54,080 nucleotides of DNA, from assembly GCA_041741735.1 (NCBI GenBank), contig JBGSJS010000059.1:1-54080 (forward strand), in the 5' to 3' direction. The position numbers and the translations under genes are program-made. This DNA is from Desulfomonilaceae bacterium. Lineage in GTDB: Bacteria > Desulfobacterota > Desulfomonilia > Desulfomonilales > Desulfomonilaceae. The notes beneath the pieces were generated by a model. That model was given only the letters and a program-made list of their open reading frames with translations, did not search any database and was not told the origin of the DNA. Shown piece by piece: positions 1,295-32,306 of the stretch (within the stretch, counting starts at the first letter, position 1; each line of letters starts with the position of its first letter).

Positions 1295-2468
1295 TTACTT
1301 TCTCTCATTTCCAAGAAGTGGTATAAGCGCACGCCCGAGACGCTTCGGAAGACAGATGAAAGTAAACCTCCGACTTAAACATCCGGCTCTATAGGATGTG
1401 AGCGGAGATCTGAAGCCCCAGCGCGTTTGAACGGCCCTCACCGAGGTACATCAAGACCGTTGCTCGGAAACGTTCATCGCGCGACGCAACACTGCTTCAT
1501 CAATGTCGTCCTTGGGCCATGCGACATGAATGTCCAAATGCGCCCATACAATCGCTCCGGCTTACGAAAATGCCGAGCCGATCATCGTATGGACTGCGGC
1601 TGTTTTGTTAGGATTTGAGGACAGAAAATGAAAGGATCAAATGATGAGAACAGTCGTCGGGTCCGGGCCACCCGGAACCTTCGATCGGTCCTTACAAGCA
1701 AGGTTAGAGACTATAGGGGCCTTACCAAAGAAGAAGGAGCAAGCGGGCACTGAAGCAACGGCAAAGGCGTGAGGCAACCTTTCGTCACCACCAGCCAGTC
1801 TCTCACTATATCGCGTGACTCCATCCGTGTCGATGGATACATCCGTACAGTCGGGTCCGGCTGCATCGCCACGCTCACCAGGACAATGCGATGACGATTC
1901 GGTACACGGCGACGCCGCCTTGATTCGGATATTACCGTCCCGCTGGAAACACCAGACTGCCGGAAAGGTCCACAGCATGGCCAACAGCGAAGTCACTGTT
2001 ATCAAAGACACGTAGGATGCGCGTCGAATTGCCATGCCGTCTGGTTGCTCCGTCCAAGGAGAGATCGATTTTTCCCAGGCGAAGGGTTCGCCCCAAACAC
2101 CTACACTTTAATGAATATCGCGGAACGGCTTCTGTGTCAAGTGTCTTGTCAGTGGCGGCACAAGATGGGTGTCCGAAGAAGTTGCCTGTTAGGAAAAAAG
2201 TGTGGAAAAATAGGGTGATCTTATCTCAAAATCGTTATGCGTCGGGACTTGGCGCGGAGTGGGAGAATGCGGCTTCCTTGGCCTTACAATGCGGTATGGC
2301 GGTCATTTCTCAGTCCGCAGTCCACGAGTACGCTGAGGGACGGGAGGAGTTGGGGAATGCATGTTGTGGTCCACTCTCGGGATCCTGGGATGAAATTGAA
2401 GCCGTCCGCCTCACGCTGGTGATCAAGACACTTCGGAAATTCCCCGTCTCCTCAGACCGAGCGTAAAC

Positions 2469-2658
2469 TACAGTGCAGCTCTTTGAAATTCGCTGCATTC
2501 TTTGAGTTGAAGGCCAATGAGCCTTCGGTGACATCATCCCCGGAGATCGGCGCCTGTTTGAGGCTTGTGGCAGATCCGATAGGGGAGCGCAGAAGGCTAT
2601 CCATAGGATTCCTTCTGACCTCAGGTCTCGTTGCTTCCCTCAATCTCCAAAGCGCTCC
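2469..2658 (-). ncRNA. Copy A of a dispersed conserved ~200-230 nt element (putative structured leader RNA or miniature repeat); see findings.
   Basis: Reverse complement of the element seen at 14597-14825, 19768-19980 and 30981-31190. Shared blocks: GAGCGCTTTG..TTGnGG at the 5' end; CCnCTATCGGnnTGCCAnAAGyCTCAnnCAGGCG; a variable GC hairpin; GATCTCCGGnGAnnATG; GAAGGCTCATTGGCCTTCAACTCnAAnAATGCnGCGAATTTnAAnGAGCnGCAC at the 3' end. Confidence 0.4.
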
Positions 2659-2683
2659 ACAGCAATTGCCGCGATATTCGCGA

Positions 2684-3748
2684 TCACTTTACCTTAGCAG
2701 ATAGAAATTCGAATGGCTGAGCCGATTCGAACTTGCTTGCAGCGCTGCCGGAATAGGTCTTGCGACCGGTGAGGGTGAGCTTCTTGACCGGGGCACCCTC
2801 CTTCAAATCCAGTTCCGCCAACGGCACCCAAAAGGTGGTGGGGCTCGTAGCGGAATCATAGTAATAAACCTTGGTCTTGTGATCGGAGACCGTGCGCCAC
2901 AGGGTCGACGCAATGTTCGGTTGCCCCGGGGTGGTGATGCCCAACGGCACGGAGACGCTCCGAATTACGCCGAATGTGCCGGCCACGGCCTGGAACATGT
3001 CGGCTGTCTTGGGGATGGCGTTGATGAAAAACGACGCTCGCGCAAAGCGATCCGATGCCCGGATGGTGCCCGGAAGGAAGATCATCCCGCCGATTTGCTC
3101 CCAGTACTTGTTCAGGGCCAGTTGCTGGTCAAACACGGGTGAGTTGGTCATGACCTGATACTTCTTGCCATGATGAACGACCAGCTTGCCGGCGATGTAT
3201 TCGAAAATTGCCGAGTCGCCGGTGGGGTCCGAAATCGCCAGATGTCCCGCAGCCGGCTTACCATCAGGCAGCACCGGTGCAATCACCACGAACGGATCGT
3301 CGCTCAAGGCCTTTACCGCTTCGTCTACGGACGCGTAGCTGTCGAGGACATATTGCGCCCAAGCCCCAATGGAGATGGTCGGTCGCTTGCCGTCCGGCTT
3401 GCCGTACTCGGATTCGGTGAGATAGAGAACGTTCGCAACCAGGCCCTTCTCATTCATTCCGTCGACAGTGGCGACGTTATAAAAAGAGCAGACCACGCTG
3501 CCGTATTTCGACACCCATTTGAGCGAGGTGGACCCGGCCGCGCCGTTGCGCTTCATGCCGCGGGGAAACGCCCAGAGGTCGGTGCCCGTATCTTCCGCCC
3601 AGTCCATCGACCGCGCGGTGATGATCGTGCCGTTAGGCCCCAGGTACACGGCTCGGGTGCACGCGTCGGCCTGCTGCATGGGAGCAAGGGCCAGGATCAG
3701 TGCGATAAGTGCCGCACACATTGCCTCCATGAAAGTTTCACGGGTCAT
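2684..3748 (-). CDS. Choloylglycine hydrolase / penicillin V acylase family (Ntn hydrolase, linear amide C-N hydrolase), secreted.
   Basis: 354 aa. The signal peptide is followed directly by the nucleophile Cys (...APMQQADA|CTRAVYLGPNG), the hallmark of the Ntn-hydrolase CGH family (PF02275-like). AAGGAAG SD 7 nt upstream of the ATG at 3748. Confidence 0.85.
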   Translation of the reverse strand: MTRETFMEAMCAALIALILALAPMQQADACTRAVYLGPNGTIITARSMDWAEDTGTDLWAFPRGMKRNGAAGSTSLKWVSKYGSVVCSFYNVATVDGMNEKGLVANVLYLTESEYGKPDGKRPTISIGAWAQYVLDSYASVDEAVKALSDDPFVVIAPVLPDGKPAAGHLAISDPTGDSAIFEYIAGKLVVHHGKKYQVMTNSPVFDQQLALNKYWEQIGGMIFLPGTIRASDRFARASFFINAIPKTADMFQAVAGTFGVIRSVSVPLGITTPGQPNIASTLWRTVSDHKTKVYYYDSATSPTTFWVPLAELDLKEGAPVKKLTLTGRKTYSGSAASKFESAQPFEFLSAKVK

Positions 3749-11619: not shown

Positions 11620-12380
11620 TCCGCAGAGTGATGCGTCCGCAGAGTGATGCGTCCGCAGATGAAGAGGCAAAGCGCCTGGAGTTTCCAGAGGACTTTGCAG
11701 GGTGCGCCGTTGCCTCCGTACGTTTTCTTGTTCTTGAATCTGCGCAATCTGTGGATACTCTTGATCTTCAGACAGACTTCATCCGCAGATGACACAGATG
11801 GAAAGACAAAGGCTTAAGGTCTCCGGAGGCTATTACCGGAAGATGTGTATGAATAGGCCTGGTGTGGACACCTGTGTCGGCTCTTTTGCCTTCCTAATCT
11901 GCGTGTATCTGCGCAATCTGTGGATAGTCTTCTCTGGATTTTCCGAAAAGATCTCATCCGCAGATGACGCAGATGTCCACAGATGAAAAGACATAGGCAA
12001 CAGAAGTTTGCTGAGGACATTGCGGTCCTGTGCACTGTTGATGGCTTGGCGTGGGATAAGGCCGCCTCCGTAAGATCTTCTCTTCTCAAATCTGCGTGAA
12101 TCTGTGCAATCTGTGGATTCTCTTTTTCGGATTCTTGGGAAAGATTTGATCCGCAGATGACGGAGATGTTCACAGATGAAAAGACGAAGACAGTTGAAGT
12201 CTCCGGAGGCTTTTACCGGAAATGCGTATAAGCAGGCTTGGTTTGGACGTCTATGTAGGTCTTGTTGTTTTTGAGTCTGCGTGAATCCGGGCCATCTGTG
12301 GATTCATTTCTTCAGTGAAACAATCTCACCCACGGATGTCCCCGAGGTTCGTGGATGAGAAAACACAAAACGCTTGAACT
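11620..12380. repeat. Tandem array of ~4 units of a ~190-bp repeat, each with a conserved ~100-bp dyad-symmetric core; extends into the 5' region of the GxxExxY ORF.
   Basis: Core consensus: AATCTGCGTGTATCTGCGCAATCTGTGGATAGTCTTCTCTGGATTCTTCGGAAAGATTTCATCCGCAGATGTCACAGATGTCCGCAGATGGAAAGACA. Units begin near 11741, 11897, 12085 and 12270; the last is degenerate. The cores are separated by diverged ~90-bp linkers. Confidence 0.85.
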
Positions 12381-12732
12381 CTAGTCTAGGGCGGCCAAAA
12401 TTCAGCAGGAGTCCTCGCTTGAGATGTGTTGCCTTAAGGTAGTTCAGGAGCTGCGCTTCCTCGATTCCGGTGATCGCATTGAGTGCCTTCAATTCGACTA
12501 TCACCTCATTGTAGCAGACAAAATCGGCACGGTAGGAGCAGTTGAGCTGCTCGCCCTTGTAATAGACCGGCAACTCCACCTCGCGGGCGAATGGAATGGC
12601 TCGGGCCGACATTTCGATCGCAAGCGCGTGCTGATAAACGGCCTCCAGGAATCCTGCACCGAGCTGTCGATGAACCTCCATGGCCGCACCGATAATTGCG
12701 TGAGTCTGTTCGTCTCTTGCATCTGTACTCAT
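12304..12732 (-). CDS. GxxExxY family protein (PD-(D/E)XK-like), embedded in the repeat array.
   Basis: Start at MSTDARDEQTHAIIGAAMEVHRQLGAGFLEAVYQHALAIEM...VYYKGEQL...RADFVCYNEVIVELKAL...AQLLNYLKATHLKRGLLLNFG, a full match to the ~125-aa GxxExxY family. The upstream 76 codons of the track ORF are repeat-derived, so they are excluded. Confidence 0.7.
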   Translation of the reverse strand: MSTDARDEQTHAIIGAAMEVHRQLGAGFLEAVYQHALAIEMSARAIPFAREVELPVYYKGEQLNCSYRADFVCYNEVIVELKALNAITGIEEAQLLNYLKATHLKRGLLLNFGRPRLEFKRFVFSHPRTSGTSVGEIVSLKK

Positions 12733-12879
12733 CCGGGAAAAACCCAAATTCCTTTCTTGACCGGATGACGCCACCTCGGATAGGAGCGTTCTTATCCGTA
12801 GATTACGCAGATGATCGCCGCTGAGTAAAGAAGAAACCTTGGACATGGAGAGGCGAAGATCTCGTGATCGACCAGCGTC

Positions 12880-13300
12880 CTTTTGAGGCTGTGGGTTAGC
12901 TTCCGGATTCAGAGAGGTTTCATCCGCAGATGACACAGATGTCCGCAGATGAAAAGACAATGCGTTTGAAGCCGGGTCGAGAACAACTACAGTTTACGTG
13001 GACTTTCGCAACACACGTGTAACCACGCATTCGTTCCGGCTTCTTTAATCTGCGTGTATCTGCGTCATCTGTGGATACTCTTCTCTGGATTCTTCGGAAA
13101 GATTTCATCCGCAGATGTCACAGATGTCCGCAGATGGAAAGACAAGAGTGACTGAAGTCTCCGAAGGGCTTCTAGCGTCCGGCCAGGTCGTTGATGAATT
13201 TCCATCGCCTGACCGGAGATTCCGCGAGCTATTCTGCTTTTTGAATCCGCGTTGATTTGTACTGGTTCAGCGTGAATCGGACAAATCCGGTTTGGGTTTA
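12880..13300. repeat. Left copy of a ~350-400 bp direct repeat (two hairpin-core units plus a diverged linker) flanking the 13.3-18.8 kb segment.
   Basis: ~95% identical over ~350 bp to 18885-19265, including the stretch ...gaaagacaatgcgtttgaagccgggtcgagaaca(a/g)ctacagt(t/c)tacgtggactttcgcaacacacgtgtaaccacgcattcgttccggcttctttaatctgcgt.... Confidence 0.85.
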
Positions 13301-13540: not shown

Positions 13541-14238
13541 TCACGGGTGGGGCTCATTTGTCAACTCCTCGTGACGACGCTGCTTTCTCGTTTCGCGGGC
13601 TGCTTCGAGCTTTCGGTCACGAGCCGCAAGGATCTCAGGCGCTCGACCTTCCAGCATGGCTTTCGGCGTCACGTAGCCGATGGCGCTGTGCAGACGTACC
13701 CCGTTGTAATGCTCGATGTAACCTGCAACCAGGCGCTTGGCGTCCTCAAGTGAGAGCGGCGTGCCCGGCCGGATGCATTCACGCTTGAGGGTGCCGTGCC
13801 ACCGTTCGATTTTGCCGTTGCTCTGCGGGTAGTAGGGGGAAGTCCGGTCGGACCAGTACCGAACGTAATCTACCACCTCATCGCGTTTGTCCGGCTCCAC
13901 CCAAGACCTGTTCAGCTTTCCCCAAGACTTTTTTTTAGTGCCACGTGAGACTCCATGATCTCCGCGATCACCTCGTCCTTGTGGGCGATCTTGACCTTGA
14001 GTGCTCTGTTTTCCTTCTCCAGACTTCGTTCCTTGCCGTCCTTGCCTCGCTCGAAGGCGGCAGCCCCGTTCTCGAAGAACTCCTTCTGCCACTTGTAAAA
14101 CAACGTCGGGTGAAGACCCTGCTCGTCGCACAGGTCCGAGACCGGAACCTTCTCAACCAGATGCCGCCTGAGAATCCGCACCTTGTCCTCGGCTGAAAAA
14201 CTCCTCCTCTTTCTGGTCACGGCCAATTCCTCCTTCAC
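13541..14238 (-). mobile_element. Decayed IS3-family element: intact OrfA, a -1 slippery site, and an OrfB that keeps only the C-terminal part of the rve/DDE core.
   Basis: OrfA (complement 13912-14220, GTG start with AAGGAGGAA SD) reads MTRKRRSFSAEDKVRILRRHLVEKVPVSDLCDEQGLHPTLFYKWQKEF..., the IS3/IS911 HTH transposase. A8G slippery run lies at 13929-13936 (minus strand AAAAAAAAG). The OrfB frame continues ...SPYYPQSNGKIERWHGTLKRECI... (C-terminal integrase-core motif), but only ~35 aa separate the frameshift from it, so the D,D part of DDE is deleted. Terminal inverted repeats were not confidently located; a 13-bp inverted repeat TGAGCCCCACCGG/CCGGTGGGGCTCA lies at 13449-13552. Confidence 0.65.
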
Positions 14239-14596
14239 GGTTATATGCTAACCGATCATGGGGAATTGTCCAATTCCGACTGAAGCAAAACAAACAAACT
14301 TCATGTGCGGCAGCGGTTTTTTTGTTTTTTCTTCAATGATTTTTTGTCACGTGCGAGGTAGCATCCCGGGGCGGCTTCAACCTTTCCGTTGGCTGGACTC
14401 TATAGGGCTTTGGCAGTGTTCCGCGCCGCCGCGGGTCTTTTTGATTGACTGGGAACCAGTGGTAAAGTACGCTCAGAAAGAGGAAACAAAGCAGGCTTTC
14501 TCGGAAGGGTGATGACGGTTCTGACTTCCACCAGCCTTTTGGGGATACACATGGGCCCTTTTCTGGGTCAGAGGAACTATTCCGCGACCTATATTG

Positions 14597-14825
14597 GAGC
14601 GCTCTGAAAATTGCGGGAGAACGAAGCAAAACCATTGGCTGATTCGGAAGCATACGGATGGGCCGCCTGCGCTCCACTATCGGATGTGCCATAAGTCTCA
14701 GGCAGTCGGCCATGCTCTTGGATCGACCGAGCCCATCTCCAGCGATAATGCGGTCCAAGGCTCATTGGCTTTCAACTCGAACAATGCCGCGAATTTAAAT
14801 GAGCGGCACTATAGCACGGCGCAAA
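14597..14825 (+). ncRNA. Copy B of the dispersed conserved element, as the 5' leader of the radical SAM gene.
   Basis: See findings. Ends ~85 nt upstream of the rSAM ATG (14912). Confidence 0.45.
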
Positions 14826-14911
14826 CAGGCCGGGAACTGCACGGGGCCCCATAATTCCGGATTCCTGAAGTAATCGGATTTGTATCATGCTTCCATGGGG
14901 AGACGCGTTTC

Positions 14912-16501
14912 ATGAGAGTCCTGCTTATAAGCCCTAAATTCCCGTTGTCGTACTGGACGATGGAGCCCTCTTGCAGGATCTCCGGCAGCAAAACCTTCAT
15001 GCCTCCTCTCGGTCTGCTCACTGTGGCGGCCTTGCTGCCCCGGGAGTGGGAACTTCGGCTGGCAGATCTGAACGTGCGGAGCCTGCGAACCGATGACTGG
15101 ACTTGGGCCGATATAGTCATGATTTCAGGCATGTTCATACAAAGAGAAGGTGTGCTGGCAGTTCTCCAACAAGGCAAGAACCGCGGAAAGACCGTTGTTG
15201 TGGGAGGCCCGTACGCCACTTCTATGCCGTATGAGGTCCTGGAAGCCGGGGCCGATTTTGTCGTCGTGGGAGAAGGCGAAAACACCGTTCCATTTTTGCT
15301 TGCGGCTCTCCATGAGGGCAAGGCAAAAGCAGTGGTCAAGAACGAAGTCAAGCCGGAAATGAGCACGTCACCCGTTCCACGGTTTGATCTGCTTCGACTT
15401 GAAGATTACGCACTTCTCGCAATTCAGACTTCGCGTGGTTGCCCGTTTAACTGTGAGTTCTGCGATATTGTGAATCTCTTCGGCCGGAAGCCCCGCTACA
15501 AGAATCCAGACCAAGTCCTTCTCGAGCTGGATGCCTTGCACAATCTTGGATGGAGATCAGAGGTCTTTATTAGCGATGACAATTTTATTGGTAATCCCCA
15601 GCGGGCCGAGGCCATACTTGAGAAGATAATTCCATGGACAAGAGACAAAGTTGAAGAATTCACATTTTCAACACAGGTTTCGCTAAATCTGGCTAGGCAC
15701 CCCAAGCTGATGGACCTCATGTATCGAGCAAACTTCAGAGGGGTTTTCAGCGGTATTGAGACCCCTGACGAAGAAGTGCTCTTACGTAACCGAAAGTACC
15801 AAAACATAAGAAACCCGGCTGCGGAATCCGTTGCGAAAATCCAGAGCCATGGCATATCAGTGGTCGGCAGTTTCGTGATCGGGTTCGACGGTGAGAAAGA
15901 GGGCGCCGGTGACCGGATATGCTCTTTAGTAGAGCAAGCGGACATCCCTATCGTCATGATCGAGTTGCTGCGGGCGTTTCCCAATACCGACCTGTACGAC
16001 CGGCTTAAACGAGAGAATCGCCTCATCCAGGTGAGGAACATTGGCACCGGCATTGAAAGCGAGAGTCTGAACTATATACCCACGAGGCCTGAGGAGCAAA
16101 TATTGGCGGAGTATGCCACGTCGTGGGACTATCTGTACGACCGTTCACGTTTCCTGGCTCGTGCTTACAGGCATTTCCTCGCACTACCTCCTGTAGCCAA
16201 AAGTCCCCGGCAGTCAAACAAGTACCTTATCGCCCAGAATGGCCTGTCTTCGCGAGGGCGAGGCAGAAGAGGCTTCAACGAGGCTGTTGGTTTCACCCTT
16301 CTTGTCTGGTGGCAAGGCTTGAGCTCCAGGTGCAGACGTCAATGGTGGACCCAGCTTGTCGGTATGTGTTGGAAGAACCCGACCCGAGTTCGAGAGTATC
16401 TTATTGTAGCGGGATTCAGCGAGCACATGTTTCGGTTAAGAGGAATTATCGGAAAGAGATCTGAAGATGCAAGGAAAAACCAAAGCTCCACTGGAGGTTG
16501 A
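14912..16501 (+). CDS. B12-binding domain-containing radical SAM protein (class B rSAM with a DUF4070-like C-terminal region).
   Basis: N-terminal cobalamin-binding Rossmann region (LLISPKFP...PPLGLLTVAALL...VVVGGPYAT). The CPFNCEFC CxxxCxxC radical-SAM motif falls inside the ALLAIQTSRGCPFNCEFCDI context. 529 aa. The C-terminal ~90 aa are Arg-rich/low-complexity and overlap the convergent MNT gene, so the 3' end may be shorter. Confidence 0.85.
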   Translation: MRVLLISPKFPLSYWTMEPSCRISGSKTFMPPLGLLTVAALLPREWELRLADLNVRSLRTDDWTWADIVMISGMFIQREGVLAVLQQGKNRGKTVVVGGPYATSMPYEVLEAGADFVVVGEGENTVPFLLAALHEGKAKAVVKNEVKPEMSTSPVPRFDLLRLEDYALLAIQTSRGCPFNCEFCDIVNLFGRKPRYKNPDQVLLELDALHNLGWRSEVFISDDNFIGNPQRAEAILEKIIPWTRDKVEEFTFSTQVSLNLARHPKLMDLMYRANFRGVFSGIETPDEEVLLRNRKYQNIRNPAAESVAKIQSHGISVVGSFVIGFDGEKEGAGDRICSLVEQADIPIVMIELLRAFPNTDLYDRLKRENRLIQVRNIGTGIESESLNYIPTRPEEQILAEYATSWDYLYDRSRFLARAYRHFLALPPVAKSPRQSNKYLIAQNGLSSRGRGRRGFNEAVGFTLLVWWQGLSSRCRRQWWTQLVGMCWKNPTRVREYLIVAGFSEHMFRLRGIIGKRSEDARKNQSSTGG

Positions 16502-18680: not shown

Positions 18681-18799
18681 AGACGGATTTTACTACGATC
18701 CCGCTTTGGGTGCAAGCCTGCTCGTGTTCTGATCCTCAACTGACACGGATGTTCACAGACGGCAAGAGGAGGGCAACTGAAGTTTGCGGAGCTTTAACC

Positions 18800-19265
18800 C
18801 GAGAGGTGTGTGAACAGACGGGGCTGTGCCTCCCATGCGGGCTTTCTTGCCTTCCTGATCTGCGCTAATCGGCGCAATCTGTGGATAGTCTTCTCTGGAT
18901 TCTTCGGAAAGATTTCATCCGCAGATGTCACAGATGTCCACAGATGGAAAGACAATGCGTTTGAAGCCGGGTCGAGAACAGCTACAGTCTACGTGGACTT
19001 TCGCAACACACGTGTAACCACGCATTCGTTCCGGCTTCTTTAATCTGCGTCAATCGGCTCAATCTGTGGATAGTTCTCTCTGGATTTCTCGGAAAGATTT
19101 CATCCGCAGATGTCACAGATGTCCGCAGATGGAAAGACAAGAGCGACTGAAGTCTCCGAAGGGCTTCTAGCGGCCGGCCAGGTCGTTGATGAATCTCCAT
19201 CGCCTGACCGGAGATTCCGCGCGCTATTCTGCCTTTTGAATCCGCGTTGATCTGCGGATTCTTTT
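18800..19265. repeat. Right copy of the ~350-400 bp direct repeat (two hairpin-core units).
   Basis: See 12880-13300. Cores begin near 18846 and 19036, with a degenerate third at ~19225. Confidence 0.85.
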
Positions 19266-19519: not shown

Positions 19520-19767
19520 TTCCCCCTCCTGCATCGGCTTGTTCAGATTTTGTGCCGTCGGTCCCTCAATCCGAAGTCCTGACGGCCAACCTATCTCTCG
19601 ATCCTCCAGGTGTGGAAGGTACCCTACCACAACGGTCGATGCGCCTTCCCCAAGCACCTCGACAAGTTTCCTAGGCTTTCACCACGGGAAGATAACGGGT
19701 AATCCGAGAAATTCTGTACATTATTGTCCACATTTCCTTTCTTTTCGTCAACATAAGTTTTTATAAC

Positions 19768-19980
19768 GGAGCGCTTTGAAAATTGCGGCAAACGGAGAGC
19801 GCCCTGGAGTCATAAGGAAGCCTACGGATAGCCTCCTTCGCTCCACTATCGGGCTGCCATAAGTCTCAAGCAGGCGTCGCTAATCCGGGAAAAAATGCGC
19901 CGATCTTCGGCGACAAGGTTGTCGAAGGCTCATTGGCCTTCAACTCGAACAATGCCGCGTATTCGCGGAACGATAGCACG
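19768..19980 (+). ncRNA. Copy C of the dispersed conserved element, as the 5' leader of the downstream Cys-motif gene.
   Basis: See findings. Confidence 0.45.
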
Positions 19981-20082: not shown

Positions 20083-20442
20083 ATGGTCAATACCACGGAA
20101 GAATTCATTGCCGACTGCGGATGCAATCCCGTTCCGCCGACGGGAGACGGTGACGTGTGCGGAACCTGCGCACCCAAATTGGCTTTGTCGGTGGAGGAAG
20201 AGGCCGTGCTCACGCAGATGAGGGCTCTCAAGGAACGGGTTCGTCCCATTGCCGACAGGATGAAGCAGATCCGGGAGGATCTCGCCGGGTCGGTTGAGGG
20301 AGACCGGACAGTACTGCAAAGCGAGTGGGGTGAGCTATCGGGCCAACTGGACGCCCTGAGAGGCCAGTGGAAAGAATGGGAATTCAAGCTGGACGAGGCC
20401 ATCCACCGAAAGCTCGTTATGCTGGGGCACCGGGAAGCGTGA
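20083..20442 (+). CDS. Hypothetical protein with an N-terminal CGC...CGTC four-Cys motif and a C-terminal coiled coil.
   Basis: MVNTTEEFIADCGCNPVPPTGDGDVCGTCAPK... then a heptad-rich tail. GGAGGTGAT SD 7 nt upstream. The track ORF starts 150 nt earlier, inside the conserved element, and was trimmed. Confidence 0.55.
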   Translation: MVNTTEEFIADCGCNPVPPTGDGDVCGTCAPKLALSVEEEAVLTQMRALKERVRPIADRMKQIREDLAGSVEGDRTVLQSEWGELSGQLDALRGQWKEWEFKLDEAIHRKLVMLGHREA

Positions 20443-27061: not shown

Positions 27062-27316
27062 TGCATTTCTCCCTCTGTTACTGCCTGTCCGTTCAAGGTG
27101 TGTGCATTGATTCCCGTGGACTCCCGGGATACGTATCCCTAATTCATCATACTACATTACGGTGCGTCGGGAAAGCGTCTGCTCGAAACGTTGATGCCCC
27201 ATTGCGAAGTGAAAAGGTTCCGGAAGCCCGGTACATCCTATGCCTACACGGAAAAGCCCCCCCTGAAGTTCGCGTCTAGATCTGCCGATCCACCTTAAGA
27301 AAGCCCGAGTCCCCTT

Positions 27317-28384
27317 CTATTTGAGGGTGATGGCCTTCTCGGGACAGATCTCCTGACAGCAAAAGCAGGTGATGCATGTGTCGGCATCGACCTCGGGGAC
27401 CTGCTCGCCCATCGACAGAGCCGATACGGGGCACTGATCCACGCAGGTGCCGCAACTCGTGCACAGATCCGGGTCCGCTTGAGGTCGAACAAGGGTCCTG
27501 CCGTGAATCATCTCCTGAATAGCTGAATTTTCGAAAATCGCCTCGCCGCCCAAGGGAGGAAGCTTGAAATCGGGAAGTGGTTTCAATTCTCCCACGATAT
27601 CGATCCCGTCGAGGTCGTAATCTCCCAATCCCAGCTCTTTTGCCCGCTGCAGGAATCGCAGGCGTCCGGGATCGCACCCCATCATGACGGCTATGACTGA
27701 ATCAAGCGCTACGGCATTGTCGGAAGCCAAAATCAGGCCGATGTCTCTGAGATCCGGGGAAGCCGGACCGTTGCCCTCCATGCCCACAATGGCGTCTATC
27801 AGAAAGAAGTCGGGCACCCGGAGCCGAAACACGTCCACCACGGCCTCATGGAATCGAGCAGGACCTCCGGCGGCTTTGTGGAGCTGGGCCTTCTGAGCAC
27901 CGGGTAAGAAGCCGTAACTGTTCTTGATCGCTCCGGTTACCACGGTCAAACCGTGTGTCTTGAATTTGGGTAGACTGATGATGACATCCGCTTCCAGCAC
28001 TATATTGGAGATGCTCACCGTGGGAAGGAAATCAGGATTGAAAGCAACTTGTTGCGATTCGTTTCCGATGTTTCGGTAGTACCCTTTGGCAGCGTCCATA
28101 AGGCCTGTTACCCTGAAACTCTCCTCGTTGGCGCCATAGCTCATAAGACCCGGATTGTCCCCCACGACAATTGAGGAGGGTCCCATGGTCTCCACCTTCT
28201 CAACCACAGCGCGGAGGACGGCAGGGTTCGTGACTATGCCTTCGTCCCGGTCCGATCCCCTCAGGACGTTGGGTTTTATCAAAACGCTCTTCCCCTGCAA
28301 TTCCGGGGGAAAAAGCTCGAAAGCTCGGTCGACCGCTTCACGAACGTTGTCATAAGTAGAAGGATGAATCATTACCTTTGGCAT
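27317..28384 (-). CDS. DUF362 domain protein fused to a 2x[4Fe-4S] ferredoxin domain.
   Basis: 355 aa. DUF362-like N-terminal region, then C-terminal CTSCGTCVDQCP and CITCFCCQEICP ferredoxin motifs. Confidence 0.75.
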   Translation of the reverse strand: MPKVMIHPSTYDNVREAVDRAFELFPPELQGKSVLIKPNVLRGSDRDEGIVTNPAVLRAVVEKVETMGPSSIVVGDNPGLMSYGANEESFRVTGLMDAAKGYYRNIGNESQQVAFNPDFLPTVSISNIVLEADVIISLPKFKTHGLTVVTGAIKNSYGFLPGAQKAQLHKAAGGPARFHEAVVDVFRLRVPDFFLIDAIVGMEGNGPASPDLRDIGLILASDNAVALDSVIAVMMGCDPGRLRFLQRAKELGLGDYDLDGIDIVGELKPLPDFKLPPLGGEAIFENSAIQEMIHGRTLVRPQADPDLCTSCGTCVDQCPVSALSMGEQVPEVDADTCITCFCCQEICPEKAITLK

Positions 28385-30590: not shown

Positions 30591-30920
30591 TCATTGGCCG
30601 AGCGCCTTATCCAACGACTCATATATGGGGAGGATGTTTGCGAATCCCGAGACATCGAACACTTTCTTCACCACTCCGTGGAGAGAACAGCATGCAATGC
30701 CCCCACCCGCCGCCTTAGCCTTCTTTGCCACTGAGAGCACAATGCGCAGACCCGCACTGCTGATATAATCGAGCCGGCTCAGATCGACAATGAAATCCCT
30801 ATGCCCTTTCGCCATGCATTCCAACATGCACAGCTCAAACTCGGGAGCGTTAACGGTGTCAATTCTTCCTTCCACGGTGACCACGGCAACAGTGCCGACG
30901 GTGCTTACAATCGTATTCAA
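30591..30920 (-). CDS. STAS-domain anti-sigma-factor antagonist (SpoIIAA/RsbV-like).
   Basis: 109 aa from a TTG start preceded by GGGAGG (LNTIVSTVGTVAVVTVEGRIDTVNAPEFELCMLECMAKGHRDFIVDLSRLDYISSAGLRIVLSVAKKAKAAGGGIACCSLHGVVKKVFDVSGFANILPIYESLDKAL). The longer track ORF extends into the conserved leader element. Confidence 0.75.
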   Translation of the reverse strand: MNTIVSTVGTVAVVTVEGRIDTVNAPEFELCMLECMAKGHRDFIVDLSRLDYISSAGLRIVLSVAKKAKAAGGGIACCSLHGVVKKVFDVSGFANILPIYESLDKALGQ

Positions 30921-30980
30921 ACAAGCCTCCCGGACCCTATTCTGTTTTGTGAAGAGCCGCTCCTCGCGGCGGCTGCAACC

Positions 30981-31190
30981 GTGCCGCTCATTAAAATTCG
31001 CGGCGTTCTTCGAGCTGAAGGCCAATGAGCCTTCGACGACATTGTCGCCGGAGATCGGCGCAATTTTTCCGACAGGAGCAGCGCCTTCTTGAGACTTATG
31101 GCAGACCCTATAGTGAAGCGTTAGAAGCCATCCAAAGGGTCCCTGATGACACCACGGCTCTTTTCGTTTGCCGCAGTTTGCAAACCGCCC
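30981..31190 (-). ncRNA. Copy D of the dispersed conserved element, as the 5' leader of the STAS gene.
   Basis: See findings. Confidence 0.45.
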
Positions 31191-31250
31191 TACTATAGGC
31201 TTACAGCGGTCTCTCCCTTGTGTCAACAATCGGTTGGAACGTGCCCCGTC

Positions 31251-32306
31251 TTACGCTGAACCGCCGGTTTGGGTGCGCTCCCAATCCATTTTTACCATCT
31301 CAAAAATCCGGTGCGCGGCTTCCGAATAGAGCTTGATCTCTTCAAAATCGGGCCGGCAGAGGATCTTCTGCATCAACAGTCCATCTCCGTCGAACCAACG
31401 GGGAAGGAGACCTCCGAAGAAAAATCCTCTTGCCCTGCACGAATCCACTGCAGCGACGACGGACGGAGAGTCCAATTTCAGCCATACCTGGAGCACTTCC
31501 ACCTTTTGGGCAACGGCGCGGTTTTCCAGGTCGGAAAGATACGCTCCGAAGTCCGAACCGACCGTCCCCACCGCGATGCGGGCCACCCGCGCAAAATCGA
31601 AAATCGTCATGTCGGCTCTCGATGGGCCTTCAACGTCCACAGCCCCTTCTGCCACGATCAAGTCCCGCTCGTCGTCGAGGCTCGCAAAGAGGAAGCGCAA
31701 TTCCTCCTCGTACACCTTGGGGATAACTACCCGGAGATGTTTGGGTTTGAAGCACCGAAACGCCAGTAGAGCGGCTACTCTGCCGGTGGCGCTTCTTTCG
31801 GCGGTGTACGCCTGGGCCGGCATGAGCGCGACTTCCAAAGCCGTTTCCACGTGCTTGAATTCGATTACGGACTTCTGCATGGTTAGATGATTGCACACCG
31901 GCTCGCCGAAGGTCTCCTCCACGGATTGACAGCTCGTCACCCACTTTTCATACACGAACTCCAGCAGGCGGCGGTTGATGCCCAATTTACGATACTCCCG
32001 CAAGACCAAGCCGGCACCTGCTTCGTAAAGGGAGGAGAACGGTGCGGACCTGAAGAGGTTCTGCACTCCTACCACATCCCCCTTGGGAGCTCGTGCCACA
32101 AAGGTATAGGTGTGACCTGAGGCGTTGGCTTCCATTAGCGCCTCGGGATCGTAGAAGAGTCTTATCGGATATCCTTCTCCATACACCGCACGGAAAAGAC
32201 AAACGATTCCTGGGGCATCTTCAGGGCGAAAGTTGTCCACTTCGAACGGTTGTCCGGGTTCCACCGTTTTGTCAGGTTCTCTTACCGACATGCAGGGCTC
32301 CTTCAC
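31251..32306 (-). CDS. Hypothetical protein with tandem GNAT-like acyltransferase folds.
   Basis: 351 aa. The N-terminal half has an acetyltransferase-like core (GIVCLFRAVYGEGYPIRL...VVGVQNLFRS...AGLVLREYRKLGINRRLLEF). The second half repeats the fold (..ARGFFFGGLLPRWFDGDGLLMQKIL). No strong family assignment. Confidence 0.45.
   Translation of the reverse strand: MKEPCMSVREPDKTVEPGQPFEVDNFRPEDAPGIVCLFRAVYGEGYPIRLFYDPEALMEANASGHTYTFVARAPKGDVVGVQNLFRSAPFSSLYEAGAGLVLREYRKLGINRRLLEFVYEKWVTSCQSVEETFGEPVCNHLTMQKSVIEFKHVETALEVALMPAQAYTAERSATGRVAALLAFRCFKPKHLRVVIPKVYEEELRFLFASLDDERDLIVAEGAVDVEGPSRADMTIFDFARVARIAVGTVGSDFGAYLSDLENRAVAQKVEVLQVWLKLDSPSVVAAVDSCRARGFFFGGLLPRWFDGDGLLMQKILCRPDFEEIKLYSEAAHRIFEMVKMDWERTQTGGSA

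What the first reader, a model, noticed from the sequence alone, without database searches (positions are those of the whole stretch)
14597..14825. Four near-identical copies of a ~200-230 nt conserved element, three sitting as 5' leaders of unrelated genes (radical SAM, Cys-motif protein, STAS antagonist)
Copies lie at 2469-2658(-), 14597-14825(+), 19768-19980(+) and 30981-31190(-). They share long, nearly identical blocks: GAGCGCTTTGAAAATTGCGGCAAACG at the 5' end; CTCCACTATCGGnnTGCCATAAGTCTCAAGCAGGCG in the middle; GATCTCCGGCGACAATG; and GAAGGCTCATTGGCCTTCAACTCGAACAATGCCGCGAATTTnAATGAGCGGCAC at the 3' end. Between GCAGGCG and GATCTCC is a variable-length GC-rich hairpin (10 nt in copy A, ~33 nt in the others, with GGCG...CGCC pairing), the pattern expected for an RNA stem rather than a protein. 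Copy C carries a 1-nt indel that breaks any common reading frame, so a conserved peptide is unlikely. Even so, several substitutions between copies fall at codon-third-like positions (GCT/GCC, TCG/TCA, TTT/TTC). Three copies end 35-100 nt before the start of a same-strand gene (rSAM at 14912, Cys protein at 20083, STAS at 30920). Four copies in 54 kb at this level of identity is unusual for a riboswitch and more like a mobile or duplicated regulatory cassette (promoter plus leader). I could not match it to any riboswitch or ncRNA consensus I know.
Basis: seen in the sequence. Interest (0 to 1): 0.8.

Follow-up and report, generated by a model that had tools for sequence, protein, structure and literature searches.

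The report
Small mobile inverted-repeat element (MITE) family
The four repeats are copies of a roughly 220-base non-autonomous transposable element (a bacterial MITE) that has landed in front of unrelated genes. They are not a riboswitch or a shared RNA leader, so this is a fairly ordinary finding, though the family itself seems undescribed.

Summary
Four copies lie at A 2469-2664(-), B 14590-14813(+), C 19762-19975(+) and D 30977-31197(-). They are 71-79% identical to one another, with unrelated flanks, so "near-identical" is true only of some blocks.

Five more copies turned up in metagenome contigs, again at unrelated loci. Each copy has sharp ends and imperfect inverted termini of about 27 nt (TATAGTGGAGCGC... 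/ ...GAGCGGCACTATA). A third, inverted copy of the 13-nt end motif lies inside the element.

Two related genomes lack the element at the matching site. Upstream of the rSAM gene, removing 14590-14813 restores a colinear alignment with a relative about 90% identical. At the STAS locus the shared left flank ends in a single TA where the element begins.

No helix shows covariation: pairing equals the shuffled controls. Rfam gives no match, and no conserved promoter or terminator was found.

The ORFs called over the element have no shared start codon or stop codon and do not share a frame in the 5' half. The 3' 70 nt does show a real codon-like three-base periodicity (p about 0.003), which I read as a relic of coding sequence.

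Best reading: a new MITE family in a Thermodesulfobacteriota-like genome that inserts at TA and is moved by a transposase not present in this window. Interest is low to moderate.

The parts
2469..2664 (-). Copy A, the short variant (196 nt) lacking the 23-nt internal segment. It lies 19 nt after the stop codon of a CBAH-family hydrolase gene (2684-3748 -) and converges with ORF 2017-2466(+). The 50-aa ORF in it, P0001, is on record from NCBI.
14590..14813 (+). Copy B (224 nt, terminal TA..TA included), 98 nt upstream of the B12-binding radical SAM gene (14912-16501). This is the filled site; L008 and L009 are the matching empty sites.
14590..14616 (+). 5' terminal inverted repeat arm of copy B (TATATTGGAGCGCTCTGAAAATTGCGG).
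   Evidence: alignment columns 7-33 of A8; in the 9-copy consensus 22 of 27 positions pair with the 3' arm (21 Watson-Crick, 1 G-U)
14669..14681 (-). Internal third copy of the end motif (GATAGTGGAGCGC on the minus strand), in the same orientation as the 3' end. It may serve as an alternative right end.
   Evidence: L014 carries only the 5' module that stops at this motif
14706..14728 (+).
   Evidence: the GGCGC/GCGCC pairing shows no covariation
14729..14797 (+). Best-conserved 3' block (…APISGDNVVEGSLAFNSKNAANF… frame). Its variability has a three-base period, and it contains the GAAGGC/GCCTTC hairpin (CAAGGC/GCTTTC in copy B) at 14756-14773.
14787..14813 (+). 3' terminal inverted repeat arm of copy B (…GCCGCGAATTTAAATGAGCGGCACTATA).
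19762..19975 (+). Copy C (214 nt; 1-nt and 6-nt deletions), 107 nt upstream of the Cys-motif protein gene (20083-20442). An orthologous filled site exists in L010.
30977..31197 (-). Copy D (221 nt; both ends degenerate), 56 nt upstream of the STAS gene (30591-30920 -). The syntenic contig L014 lacks it and has a single TA at the junction.

Best explanation
The repeats are copies of a non-autonomous DNA transposon, a bacterial miniature inverted-repeat transposable element (MITE) of about 220 nt.

Proposed mechanism:
- A transposase encoded elsewhere (none is in this window) recognises the terminal motif TAGTGGAGCGC.
- That motif sits at both ends in inverted orientation, within imperfect terminal inverted repeats of about 27 nt. 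A third copy lies about 80 nt from the left end, facing the same way as the right end.
- The element is inserted at a TA dinucleotide, preferentially in a YTAG context, and the TA is duplicated.
- Using the internal copy as an alternative right end would produce the roughly 88-nt short form seen in L014.

After insertion the copies are immobile fossils that decay independently. They accumulate in intergenic DNA just upstream of genes, mostly in the same orientation as the gene. Because one forward frame is usually free of stop codons, gene callers turn them into small 'hypothetical proteins' or false N-terminal extensions.

Shown here: repetition, sharp boundaries, inverted termini, presence/absence at two loci, TA at the junction, and lack of RNA covariation.

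Inferred: the cut-and-paste mechanism, the TA duplication, an IS630/Tc1-like transposase, and any effect on neighbouring genes.
For: 1. Copies and flanks. Nine distinct copies (four in the window, five in metagenome contigs L003, L004, L006, L010, L013) align over the same roughly 220 nt at 67-86% identity. Their flanks and neighbouring genes are unrelated: rSAM, Cys protein, STAS, PBP_like_2, MFS, peptidase S66.

2. Inverted termini. In the consensus, 22 of 27 positions of the 5' arm pair with the 3' arm, 78% of cells overall, against 36-47% when the partner is slid. A third inverted copy of the 13-mer is present in all four window copies.

3. Filled versus empty site at B. Window 14428-14589 and 14843-16499 align to L008 9737-9900 and 9932-11585 at 86-90%. 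Deleting 14590-14813 gives a colinear alignment, and keeping one TA makes it gapless. L009 is the same. L011 and L012 also lack the element.

4. D site. The syntenic contig L014 lacks the element. The shared left flank CTGTAAGCC is followed by TA in both sequences.

5. Post-insertion decay. In the orthologous pair C/L010 the end motif has changed at 5 of 13 positions. This fits decay of the ends after insertion.

6. No RNA signal..

7. Literature. Reviewed bacterial MITEs are small (under about 200 bp), have terminal inverted repeats and 5'-TA-3' termini, show filled/empty polymorphism, and often carry stop-free frames fused to neighbouring ORFs (PMC2229807). The Correia repeat begins TATAGTGGATTAA (PMC5039591).
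Against: - No autonomous partner with matching ends was found. The only transposase-like ORF in the window is an rve_3 (IS3-type) fragment at 13541-14131.
- Target duplication is not proven. TA is at both ends of every copy, so it cannot be told apart from the repeat itself. The clean empty site (L008) has CG where TA is expected.
- The internal 3' block is better conserved than the termini and shows codon-like periodicity. Plain neutral decay does not predict this.
- In 7 of 8 loci with a known neighbour, the gene downstream of the element lies on the same strand. This hints at selection or function, though the metagenome copies were found through forward-strand ORFs.
- Copy number in the source genome is unknown.
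Confidence: 0.8

Rival explanations
1. The element is a structured cis-regulatory RNA (a riboswitch-like leader or attenuator) shared by several operons. The conserved blocks would form a ligand- or protein-binding fold.
For: - Copies B, C and D and the metagenome copies sit upstream of same-strand genes.
- Several short hairpins are possible. GAAGGC/GCCTTC is paired in 96% of cells.
- One copy (L006) folds better than its shuffles, z = -2.7.
Against: - No Rfam match, even at permissive E-values.
- The RNAalifold covariation term is +2.47.
- Pairing in every named helix equals the shuffled controls: 86.3 vs 86.5% and 81.2 vs 82.6%.
- Copy B folds no better than shuffles, z = -0.76.
- The element is absent upstream of the orthologous rSAM and STAS genes in relatives.
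- The downstream genes share no pathway.
- Copy A has no downstream same-strand gene.
- At copy C the only promoter-like site before the gene lies downstream of the element, in a stretch about 98% identical to L010.
Confidence: 0.06
2. The element carries a genuinely translated small ORF. It would be either a family of roughly 50-90-aa proteins, or a mobile upstream ORF / N-terminal extension that is coupled or fused to the downstream gene.
For: - The 3' 23 codons show three-base periodicity of variation: the third position is 2.3-2.9 times more variable, permutation p 0.003-0.005.
- pN/pS is 0.39 in that frame against 1.1-1.4 in the other two.
- A, B and D each keep one forward frame free of stop codons, where 3.3 stops are expected.
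- The frame runs in phase into the STAS and Cys-protein genes.
- In L003 and on the P0003 and P0016 contigs the ORF's stop overlaps the next gene's start by 4 nt.
- 26 ORFs with this motif are in the protein library.
Against: - There is no conserved start codon, and no stop codon inside the element.
- Indels of 1, 2 and 23 nt put the 5' half in different frames in different copies (LHYR.CHKSQ vs LLRS.IA.CHKSQ vs SPIGSATSLKQ).
- Library ORFs P0025 and P0026 read the same conserved bases in the other two frames.
- C-termini are set by whatever flanks the element.
- The STAS and Cys-protein genes keep their own ribosome-binding site and start codon in relatives, with or without the element.
- No Pfam family matches.
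- Third positions of the block are G+C-rich by my count from alignment A8 (11 of 15, against 6 of 15 at the other two positions). Relic coding sequence plus GC-to-AT mutation bias could therefore mimic selection.
- Stop-free frames and in-frame fusions are a known property of bacterial MITEs (PMC2229807).
Confidence: 0.09
3. The copies are fragments of one duplicated gene or segmental duplications, i.e. pseudogene pieces with no mobility of their own.
For: - There is a relic coding signal in the 3' block.
- Another repeat family near copies B and C shows that local duplication occurs here (D2, 93% identity).
Against: - Similarity stops sharply at the same two ends in all nine copies, and the flanks are unrelated.
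- The ends are inverted repeats of each other.
- An exhaustive profile search of 1.84 billion representative proteins found no longer parent protein. It found only short ORFs and two long repeat proteins; the one checked, P0018, is an MBG-domain protein and a spurious match.
Confidence: 0.03

Closest known systems
Correia / NEMIS elements of Neisseria (CREE)
   Same: - Small non-autonomous elements with long imperfect terminal inverted repeats and TA at both ends.
- Short and long size variants that differ by an internal segment (Correia 107 vs 155 bp; here 196 vs about 220 nt).
- Mostly intergenic, next to gene starts.
- Stop-free frames that become fused to neighbouring ORFs (PMC2229807).
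- The first 9 bases of the terminus are identical: TATAGTGGA (Correia repeat tatagtggattaa..., PMC5039591).
   Different: - Beyond the ninth base the termini are unrelated, and the interior is unrelated.
- The host is a Thermodesulfobacteriota-like anaerobe rather than Neisseria. This taxon hint comes only from the names of neighbour-gene homologues.
- This element is longer.
- It has a third, internal copy of the end motif.
- No IHF site or internal promoter was found. RNase III processing was not tested.
RUP of Streptococcus pneumoniae and other IS630/Tc1-mariner-derived MITEs
   Same: - Insertion at TA.
- Terminal inverted repeats.
- Presumed mobilisation in trans by a transposase encoded elsewhere (PMC2229807).
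   Different: - For RUP the partner IS630-Spn1 with matching ends is known. Here no partner was found.
- Assigning this element to the IS630 superfamily rests only on the TA/YTAG junctions.
Rickettsia RPE and Yersinia YPAL/RU-2 (MITEs with open frames)
   Same: - A contiguous stop-free frame runs through the element.
- The element appears as small ORFs or in-frame extensions of neighbouring genes (PMC2229807).
   Different: - All copies seen here are intergenic.
- None was seen inside a conserved protein-coding gene.
- There is no sequence similarity.

Membership tests
Bacterial MITE (non-autonomous inverted-repeat transposable element) | Small size, with no transposase encoded | tested here: met
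   196-224 nt. The ORFs over it have no Pfam match. A profile search finds no long homologue.
Bacterial MITE (non-autonomous inverted-repeat transposable element) | Terminal inverted repeats | tested here: met
   Columns 7-33 against 206-232: 22 of 27 consensus positions are complementary, with 78% of cells paired against 36-47% in the slid controls.
Bacterial MITE (non-autonomous inverted-repeat transposable element) | Several copies at unrelated loci with sharp common boundaries | tested here: met
   Four copies in the window and five elsewhere, with unrelated flanks.
Bacterial MITE (non-autonomous inverted-repeat transposable element) | Filled versus empty sites between related genomes | tested here: met
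   B site against L008/L009 gives a clean, colinear alignment once 14590-14813 is removed. D site against L014 shares the left junction.
Bacterial MITE (non-autonomous inverted-repeat transposable element) | Target-site duplication | tested here: inconclusive
   By my reading of the nine copies, TA is at the 5' end in 7 of 9 and at the 3' end in 5 of 9. The empty D site has one TA at the junction. The empty B site has CG there. TA cannot be separated from the repeat itself.
Bacterial MITE (non-autonomous inverted-repeat transposable element) | A cognate autonomous IS with matching ends | not testable with these tools
   None in the window. No hit in plasmids or phages.
Correia/NEMIS family | The 26-bp Correia inverted repeat (tatagtggattaa...ccggtacgg or a variant) | tested here: not met
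   Only the first 9 bases agree (sequence, compared with PMC5039591).
IS630/Tc1-mariner-derived element | TA target duplication and ends matching an IS630-family member | tested here: inconclusive
   The junctions are compatible with TA/YTAG. No IS630-family end sequence was available for comparison.
Riboswitch or other curated cis-regulatory RNA | Match to a curated covariance model | tested here: not met
   No hits at gathering threshold in the whole window. Nothing relevant at E up to 10 or up to 1 on copies B, L006, L010 and L013.
Riboswitch or other curated cis-regulatory RNA | A conserved secondary structure supported by compensatory changes | tested here: not met
   Covariation term +2.47. 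Observed pairing and covariation equal the shuffled controls. Only nine sequences were available.
Small protein-coding gene | Conserved start, frame and stop | tested here: not met
   Start codons, 5' frames and C-termini differ between copies. Only the 3' 23 codons share a frame.

The most novel reading that the evidence does not exclude
The 3' 70-nt module is not merely relic sequence. It would be kept under codon-level selection because the element is a mobile, stop-less mini-ORF / leader cassette. Inserted ahead of a gene in the sense orientation, it would be translated and coupled or fused to the downstream gene, or otherwise co-opted to control its expression. That would explain the three-base periodicity, the stop-free frame, the bias toward sense orientation, and the block being better conserved than the transposition ends.
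Probability: 0.07. Interest if true: 0.6.

Novelty: new member of a known kind. Interest (0 to 1): 0.27.

Why it matters
- Annotation. The 50-aa ORF P0001 over copy A and the 175-aa N-terminally extended Cys-protein homologue P0011 are most likely artefacts of this element. About two dozen short ORFs in metagenome protein catalogues belong to the same family.
- Strain typing and genome change. The element marks recent insertion polymorphism between related Thermodesulfobacteriota-like genomes. It adds about 220 nt between upstream sequence and the start codons of an rSAM gene and a STAS/SpoIIE partner-switching operon, which could change their expression.
- Screening lesson. Repeated, conserved, hairpin-containing intergenic blocks upstream of genes are not necessarily regulatory RNAs.
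- Open question. The shared TATAGTGGA terminus with Correia elements, whose transposase is to my knowledge unknown, is a lead and nothing more.

Tried and rejected
- Rfam. Gathering threshold on the whole window and permissive scans on five copies gave nothing. The one hit was a 26-nt viral pseudoknot model at E 2.2, outside the element.
- RNA structure. RNAalifold, single-copy folds and explicit pair counts for five candidate helices showed no covariation.
- Sigma-54 promoter in GGAGCGC...TTGC. Rejected by eye because the spacing is wrong.
- Sigma-70 and terminator scans. No promoter lies inside the element. A terminator-like hairpin plus T-run appears on the antisense strand of copies C and D only, and is not conserved in the other copies.
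- Collection scans with the core motif. Genome contigs gave one hit, an Actinomycetota MAG with unrelated flanks. Metagenome contigs gave none, then one chance hit inside an AT-rich gene. Viral contigs gave none. Plasmids and phages gave none.
- Search for a parent protein or transposase through the peptide. Only short ORFs were found. P0018 is an MBG-repeat protein and a spurious match.
- DGR template/variable repeats and retron ncRNA. Considered and dropped, because no reverse transcriptase was found among the ORFs scanned and the differences are not adenine-specific.
- A weak second nhmmer hit in L003 (4875-4989, E 0.01). Not convincing by eye.
- Exact look-up of the window's rSAM protein. 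Not on record; relatives were reached through its cluster instead.

Full report
**1. Observation**

The four copies are real.
- The repeat finder links all four regions.
- The core 22-mer occurs four times against zero expected.
- A profile built from the copies finds exactly these four in the window, E 1e-63 to 1e-76.

Aligned, the copies are 71-79% identical pairwise. "Near-identical" therefore applies only to some blocks.

Refined limits:
- A: 2469-2664(-)
- B: 14590-14813(+)
- C: 19762-19975(+)
- D: 30977-31197(-)

A lacks a 23-nt internal segment. C has a 1-nt and a 6-nt deletion. B, C and D end 98, 107 and 56 nt before the start codons of three genes: a B12-binding radical SAM gene, a Cys-motif protein gene and a STAS gene. 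A lies just after the stop codon of a CBAH-family hydrolase gene and faces a convergent ORF.

**2. Related copies elsewhere**

DNA-pattern scans of the genome and metagenome collections returned only chance hits. A profile of the peptides read from the element found small ORFs in other assemblies. One of them, P0001, is the 50-aa ORF over copy A, recorded on a contig of 54,080 bases, which is this window.

The contigs of the other ORFs gave five more distinct DNA copies: L003, L004 (identical to L005), L006, L010 and L013. They align over the same roughly 220 nt at 67-86% identity. Their flanks are unrelated, and the neighbouring genes differ again (PBP_like_2, MFS transporter, peptidase S66).

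An exhaustive profile search of 1.84 billion representative proteins found 26 hits.
- Nearly all are 50-230 aa, with heterogeneous N- and C-termini.
- Some contain two copies (P0017, P0022, P0026).
- Some read the same conserved bases in another frame (P0025, N-terminus of P0026).
- No transposase or other long parent protein appeared. P0018 is an MBG-repeat protein and a spurious match.

**3. Anatomy**

All nine copies start near TATAGTGGAGCGCTTTGAAAATTGCGG and end near CCGCGAATTTCAATGAGCGGCACTATA. These two sequences are imperfect reverse complements of each other.
- 22 of 27 consensus positions pair.
- 78% of all cells pair, against 36-47% when the partner column is slid.

A third copy of the 13-nt end motif lies about 80 nt from the 5' end, in inverted orientation (GCGCTCCACTATC, and helix 8-19/87-98).

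The syntenic contig L014 carries, at another intergenic site, only the first roughly 88 nt, ending at this internal motif. This short form suggests the internal motif can act as an alternative right end. That step is inference.

**4. Presence or absence in relatives**

*B site.* The rSAM gene has orthologues about 90% identical in nucleotide sequence in L008 (NCBI GCA_975956545.1) and L009.
- Window 14428-14589 aligns to L008 9737-9900, and window 14843-16499 to L008 9932-11585.
- The element is missing from L008.
- Removing 14590-14813 makes the two sequences colinear. Keeping one TA gives a gapless alignment in which L008 has CG at the TA position.
- L011 and L012 also lack the element.

*D site.* L014 is syntenic with the window over more than 15 kb. 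Between the gene homologous to 31251-32306 and the STAS gene it has no element. The shared left flank ...CTGTAAGCC is followed by TA in both sequences. After that TA, the window continues with the element and L014 with unrelated sequence.

*C site.* L010 is an orthologous filled site. There the 13-nt end motif has already changed at 5 positions, while the ribosome-binding site and start codon of the Cys-protein gene further downstream are conserved.

Together these results show an insertion or deletion polymorphism with sharp ends, and decay of the ends after insertion.

**5. Tests of the RNA reading**

- Rfam has no match at gathering threshold in the whole window, and none at permissive thresholds on five copies.
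- RNAalifold gives an unfavourable covariation term, +2.47.
In all of them the share of paired cells and the covariation score equal the column-shuffle controls: 86.3 vs 86.5% and 81.2 vs 82.6%.
- Substitutions therefore break pairs as often as chance predicts. The complementarity is ancestral, not maintained.
- Copy B folds no better than shuffles (z = -0.76). L006 does somewhat better (z = -2.7) because its termini pair.
- No consensus promoter lies inside the element.
- At copy C a promoter-like site lies downstream of the element, in a stretch about 98% identical to L010.
- A weak terminator-like hairpin on the antisense strand of C and D is not conserved in the other copies.

**6. Tests of the coding reading**

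Upstream of CHKSQ the copies differ by indels of 1, 2 and 23 nt, so different copies read different frames. There is no shared start codon and no stop codon inside the element.

The 3' 23 codons (…APISGDNVVEGSLAFNSKNAANF…) do share one frame.
- In that frame variability is 2.3-2.9 times higher at the third position (permutation p 0.003-0.005).
- pN/pS is 0.39, against 1.1-1.4 in the other two frames.
- The 5' part shows no such signal.
- A, B and D each keep one forward frame without stop codons, where 3.3 stops are expected.

The frame happens to run in phase into the STAS and Cys-protein genes. Both genes keep their own ribosome-binding site and start codon in relatives, so these "fusions" are not needed.

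Third positions of the block are G+C-rich by my count from alignment A8 (11 of 15, against 6 of 15 at the other two positions). My preferred explanation is relic coding sequence plus mutation bias, but weak ongoing selection is not excluded.

Stop-free frames fused to neighbouring ORFs are a described property of bacterial MITEs (PMC2229807).

**7. Interpretation**

The features fit a bacterial MITE: small size, inverted termini, TA at both ends, filled and empty sites, multiple unrelated loci, long and short variants, and open frames.

Junction bases are compatible with a YTAG target and TA duplication (my reading). This is the pattern of IS630/Tc1-type elements and of RUP and Correia elements (PMC2229807).

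The terminus TATAGTGGA is identical to the first nine bases of the Correia repeat (PMC5039591). The rest is unrelated, so the element is not a Correia element.

The window contains no matching transposase. The only transposase-like ORF is an rve_3 fragment at 13541-14131.

Names attached to homologues of a neighbouring gene (Desulfomonilaceae, Desulfomonile tiedjei, Thermodesulfobacteriota) suggest the host lineage.

**8. What remains odd**

- The internal 3' block is better conserved than the ends.
- It shows codon-like periodicity.
- In 7 of 8 loci with a known neighbour, the gene downstream of the element lies on the same strand. This count is partly biased, because the metagenome copies were found through forward-strand ORFs.

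These points keep alive a low-probability reading in which the element, or its 3' module, has been co-opted as a translated or regulatory leader.

**9. Verdict**

This is a new family of a well-known kind of element, and interest is low to moderate.

Noticed in passing
window 11841-13207 and 18730-19202 (+): A second, unrelated repeat family. Seven roughly 100-nt units are spaced 185-193 nt apart in three runs, separated by variable 'spacers' of about 85-90 nt. Each unit is a long, near-perfect hairpin built from ATCTG(C/T)G-type heptads (fold -46.5 kcal/mol, z = -6.3). A PDDEXK_3 nuclease gene (12304-12960 -) lies between two runs. Segments 12908-13207 and 18903-19202 are 93% identical. There is no Rfam hit, and TRF does not report the array.
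   Followed up: partly
L014 14789-14876: A short form of the element. Only the first roughly 88 nt are present, from the 5' end to the internal inverted motif. It sits between a DUF362/Fer4 gene and the next gene. The syntenic window site (27103-27323) has no copy.
   Followed up: partly
window 13541-14131 (-): A 196-aa ORF with only the C-terminal part of an integrase core (rve_3, rve_2), probably a truncated IS3-type transposase remnant. It lies about 460 nt upstream of copy B. Together with the repeats at 11.8-13.2 kb, this region looks like a hotspot for mobile DNA.
   Followed up: no
window 2494-2646 (-) and L010 394-921: Database proteins that are probably annotation artefacts of the element. 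P0001 is a 50-aa ORF over copy A, on record from NCBI. P0011 is a 175-aa version of the Cys-motif protein whose first roughly 56 residues are read from the element.
   Followed up: partly
window 19898-19912 (-) and 31046-31060 (+): On the antisense strand of copies C and D there is a 6-bp G+C-rich hairpin followed by a T-run (terminator-like). It is not conserved in the other copies. If it works, it could penalise antisense insertions and contribute to the orientation bias.
   Followed up: partly
window 31198-31228 (-) and L014 11067-11098: The left flank of copy D (TTGACAC...CTGTAAGCC|TA) is conserved between the window and a relative about 75% identical, although the rest of the intergenic region is not. 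It may be the STAS-operon promoter. If so, copy D would lie at the very start of the transcript.
   Followed up: no
window 11620-11659: A perfect 16-nt tandem repeat, 2.5 copies (TCCGCAGAGTGATGCG), just upstream of the hairpin-repeat array.
   Followed up: no
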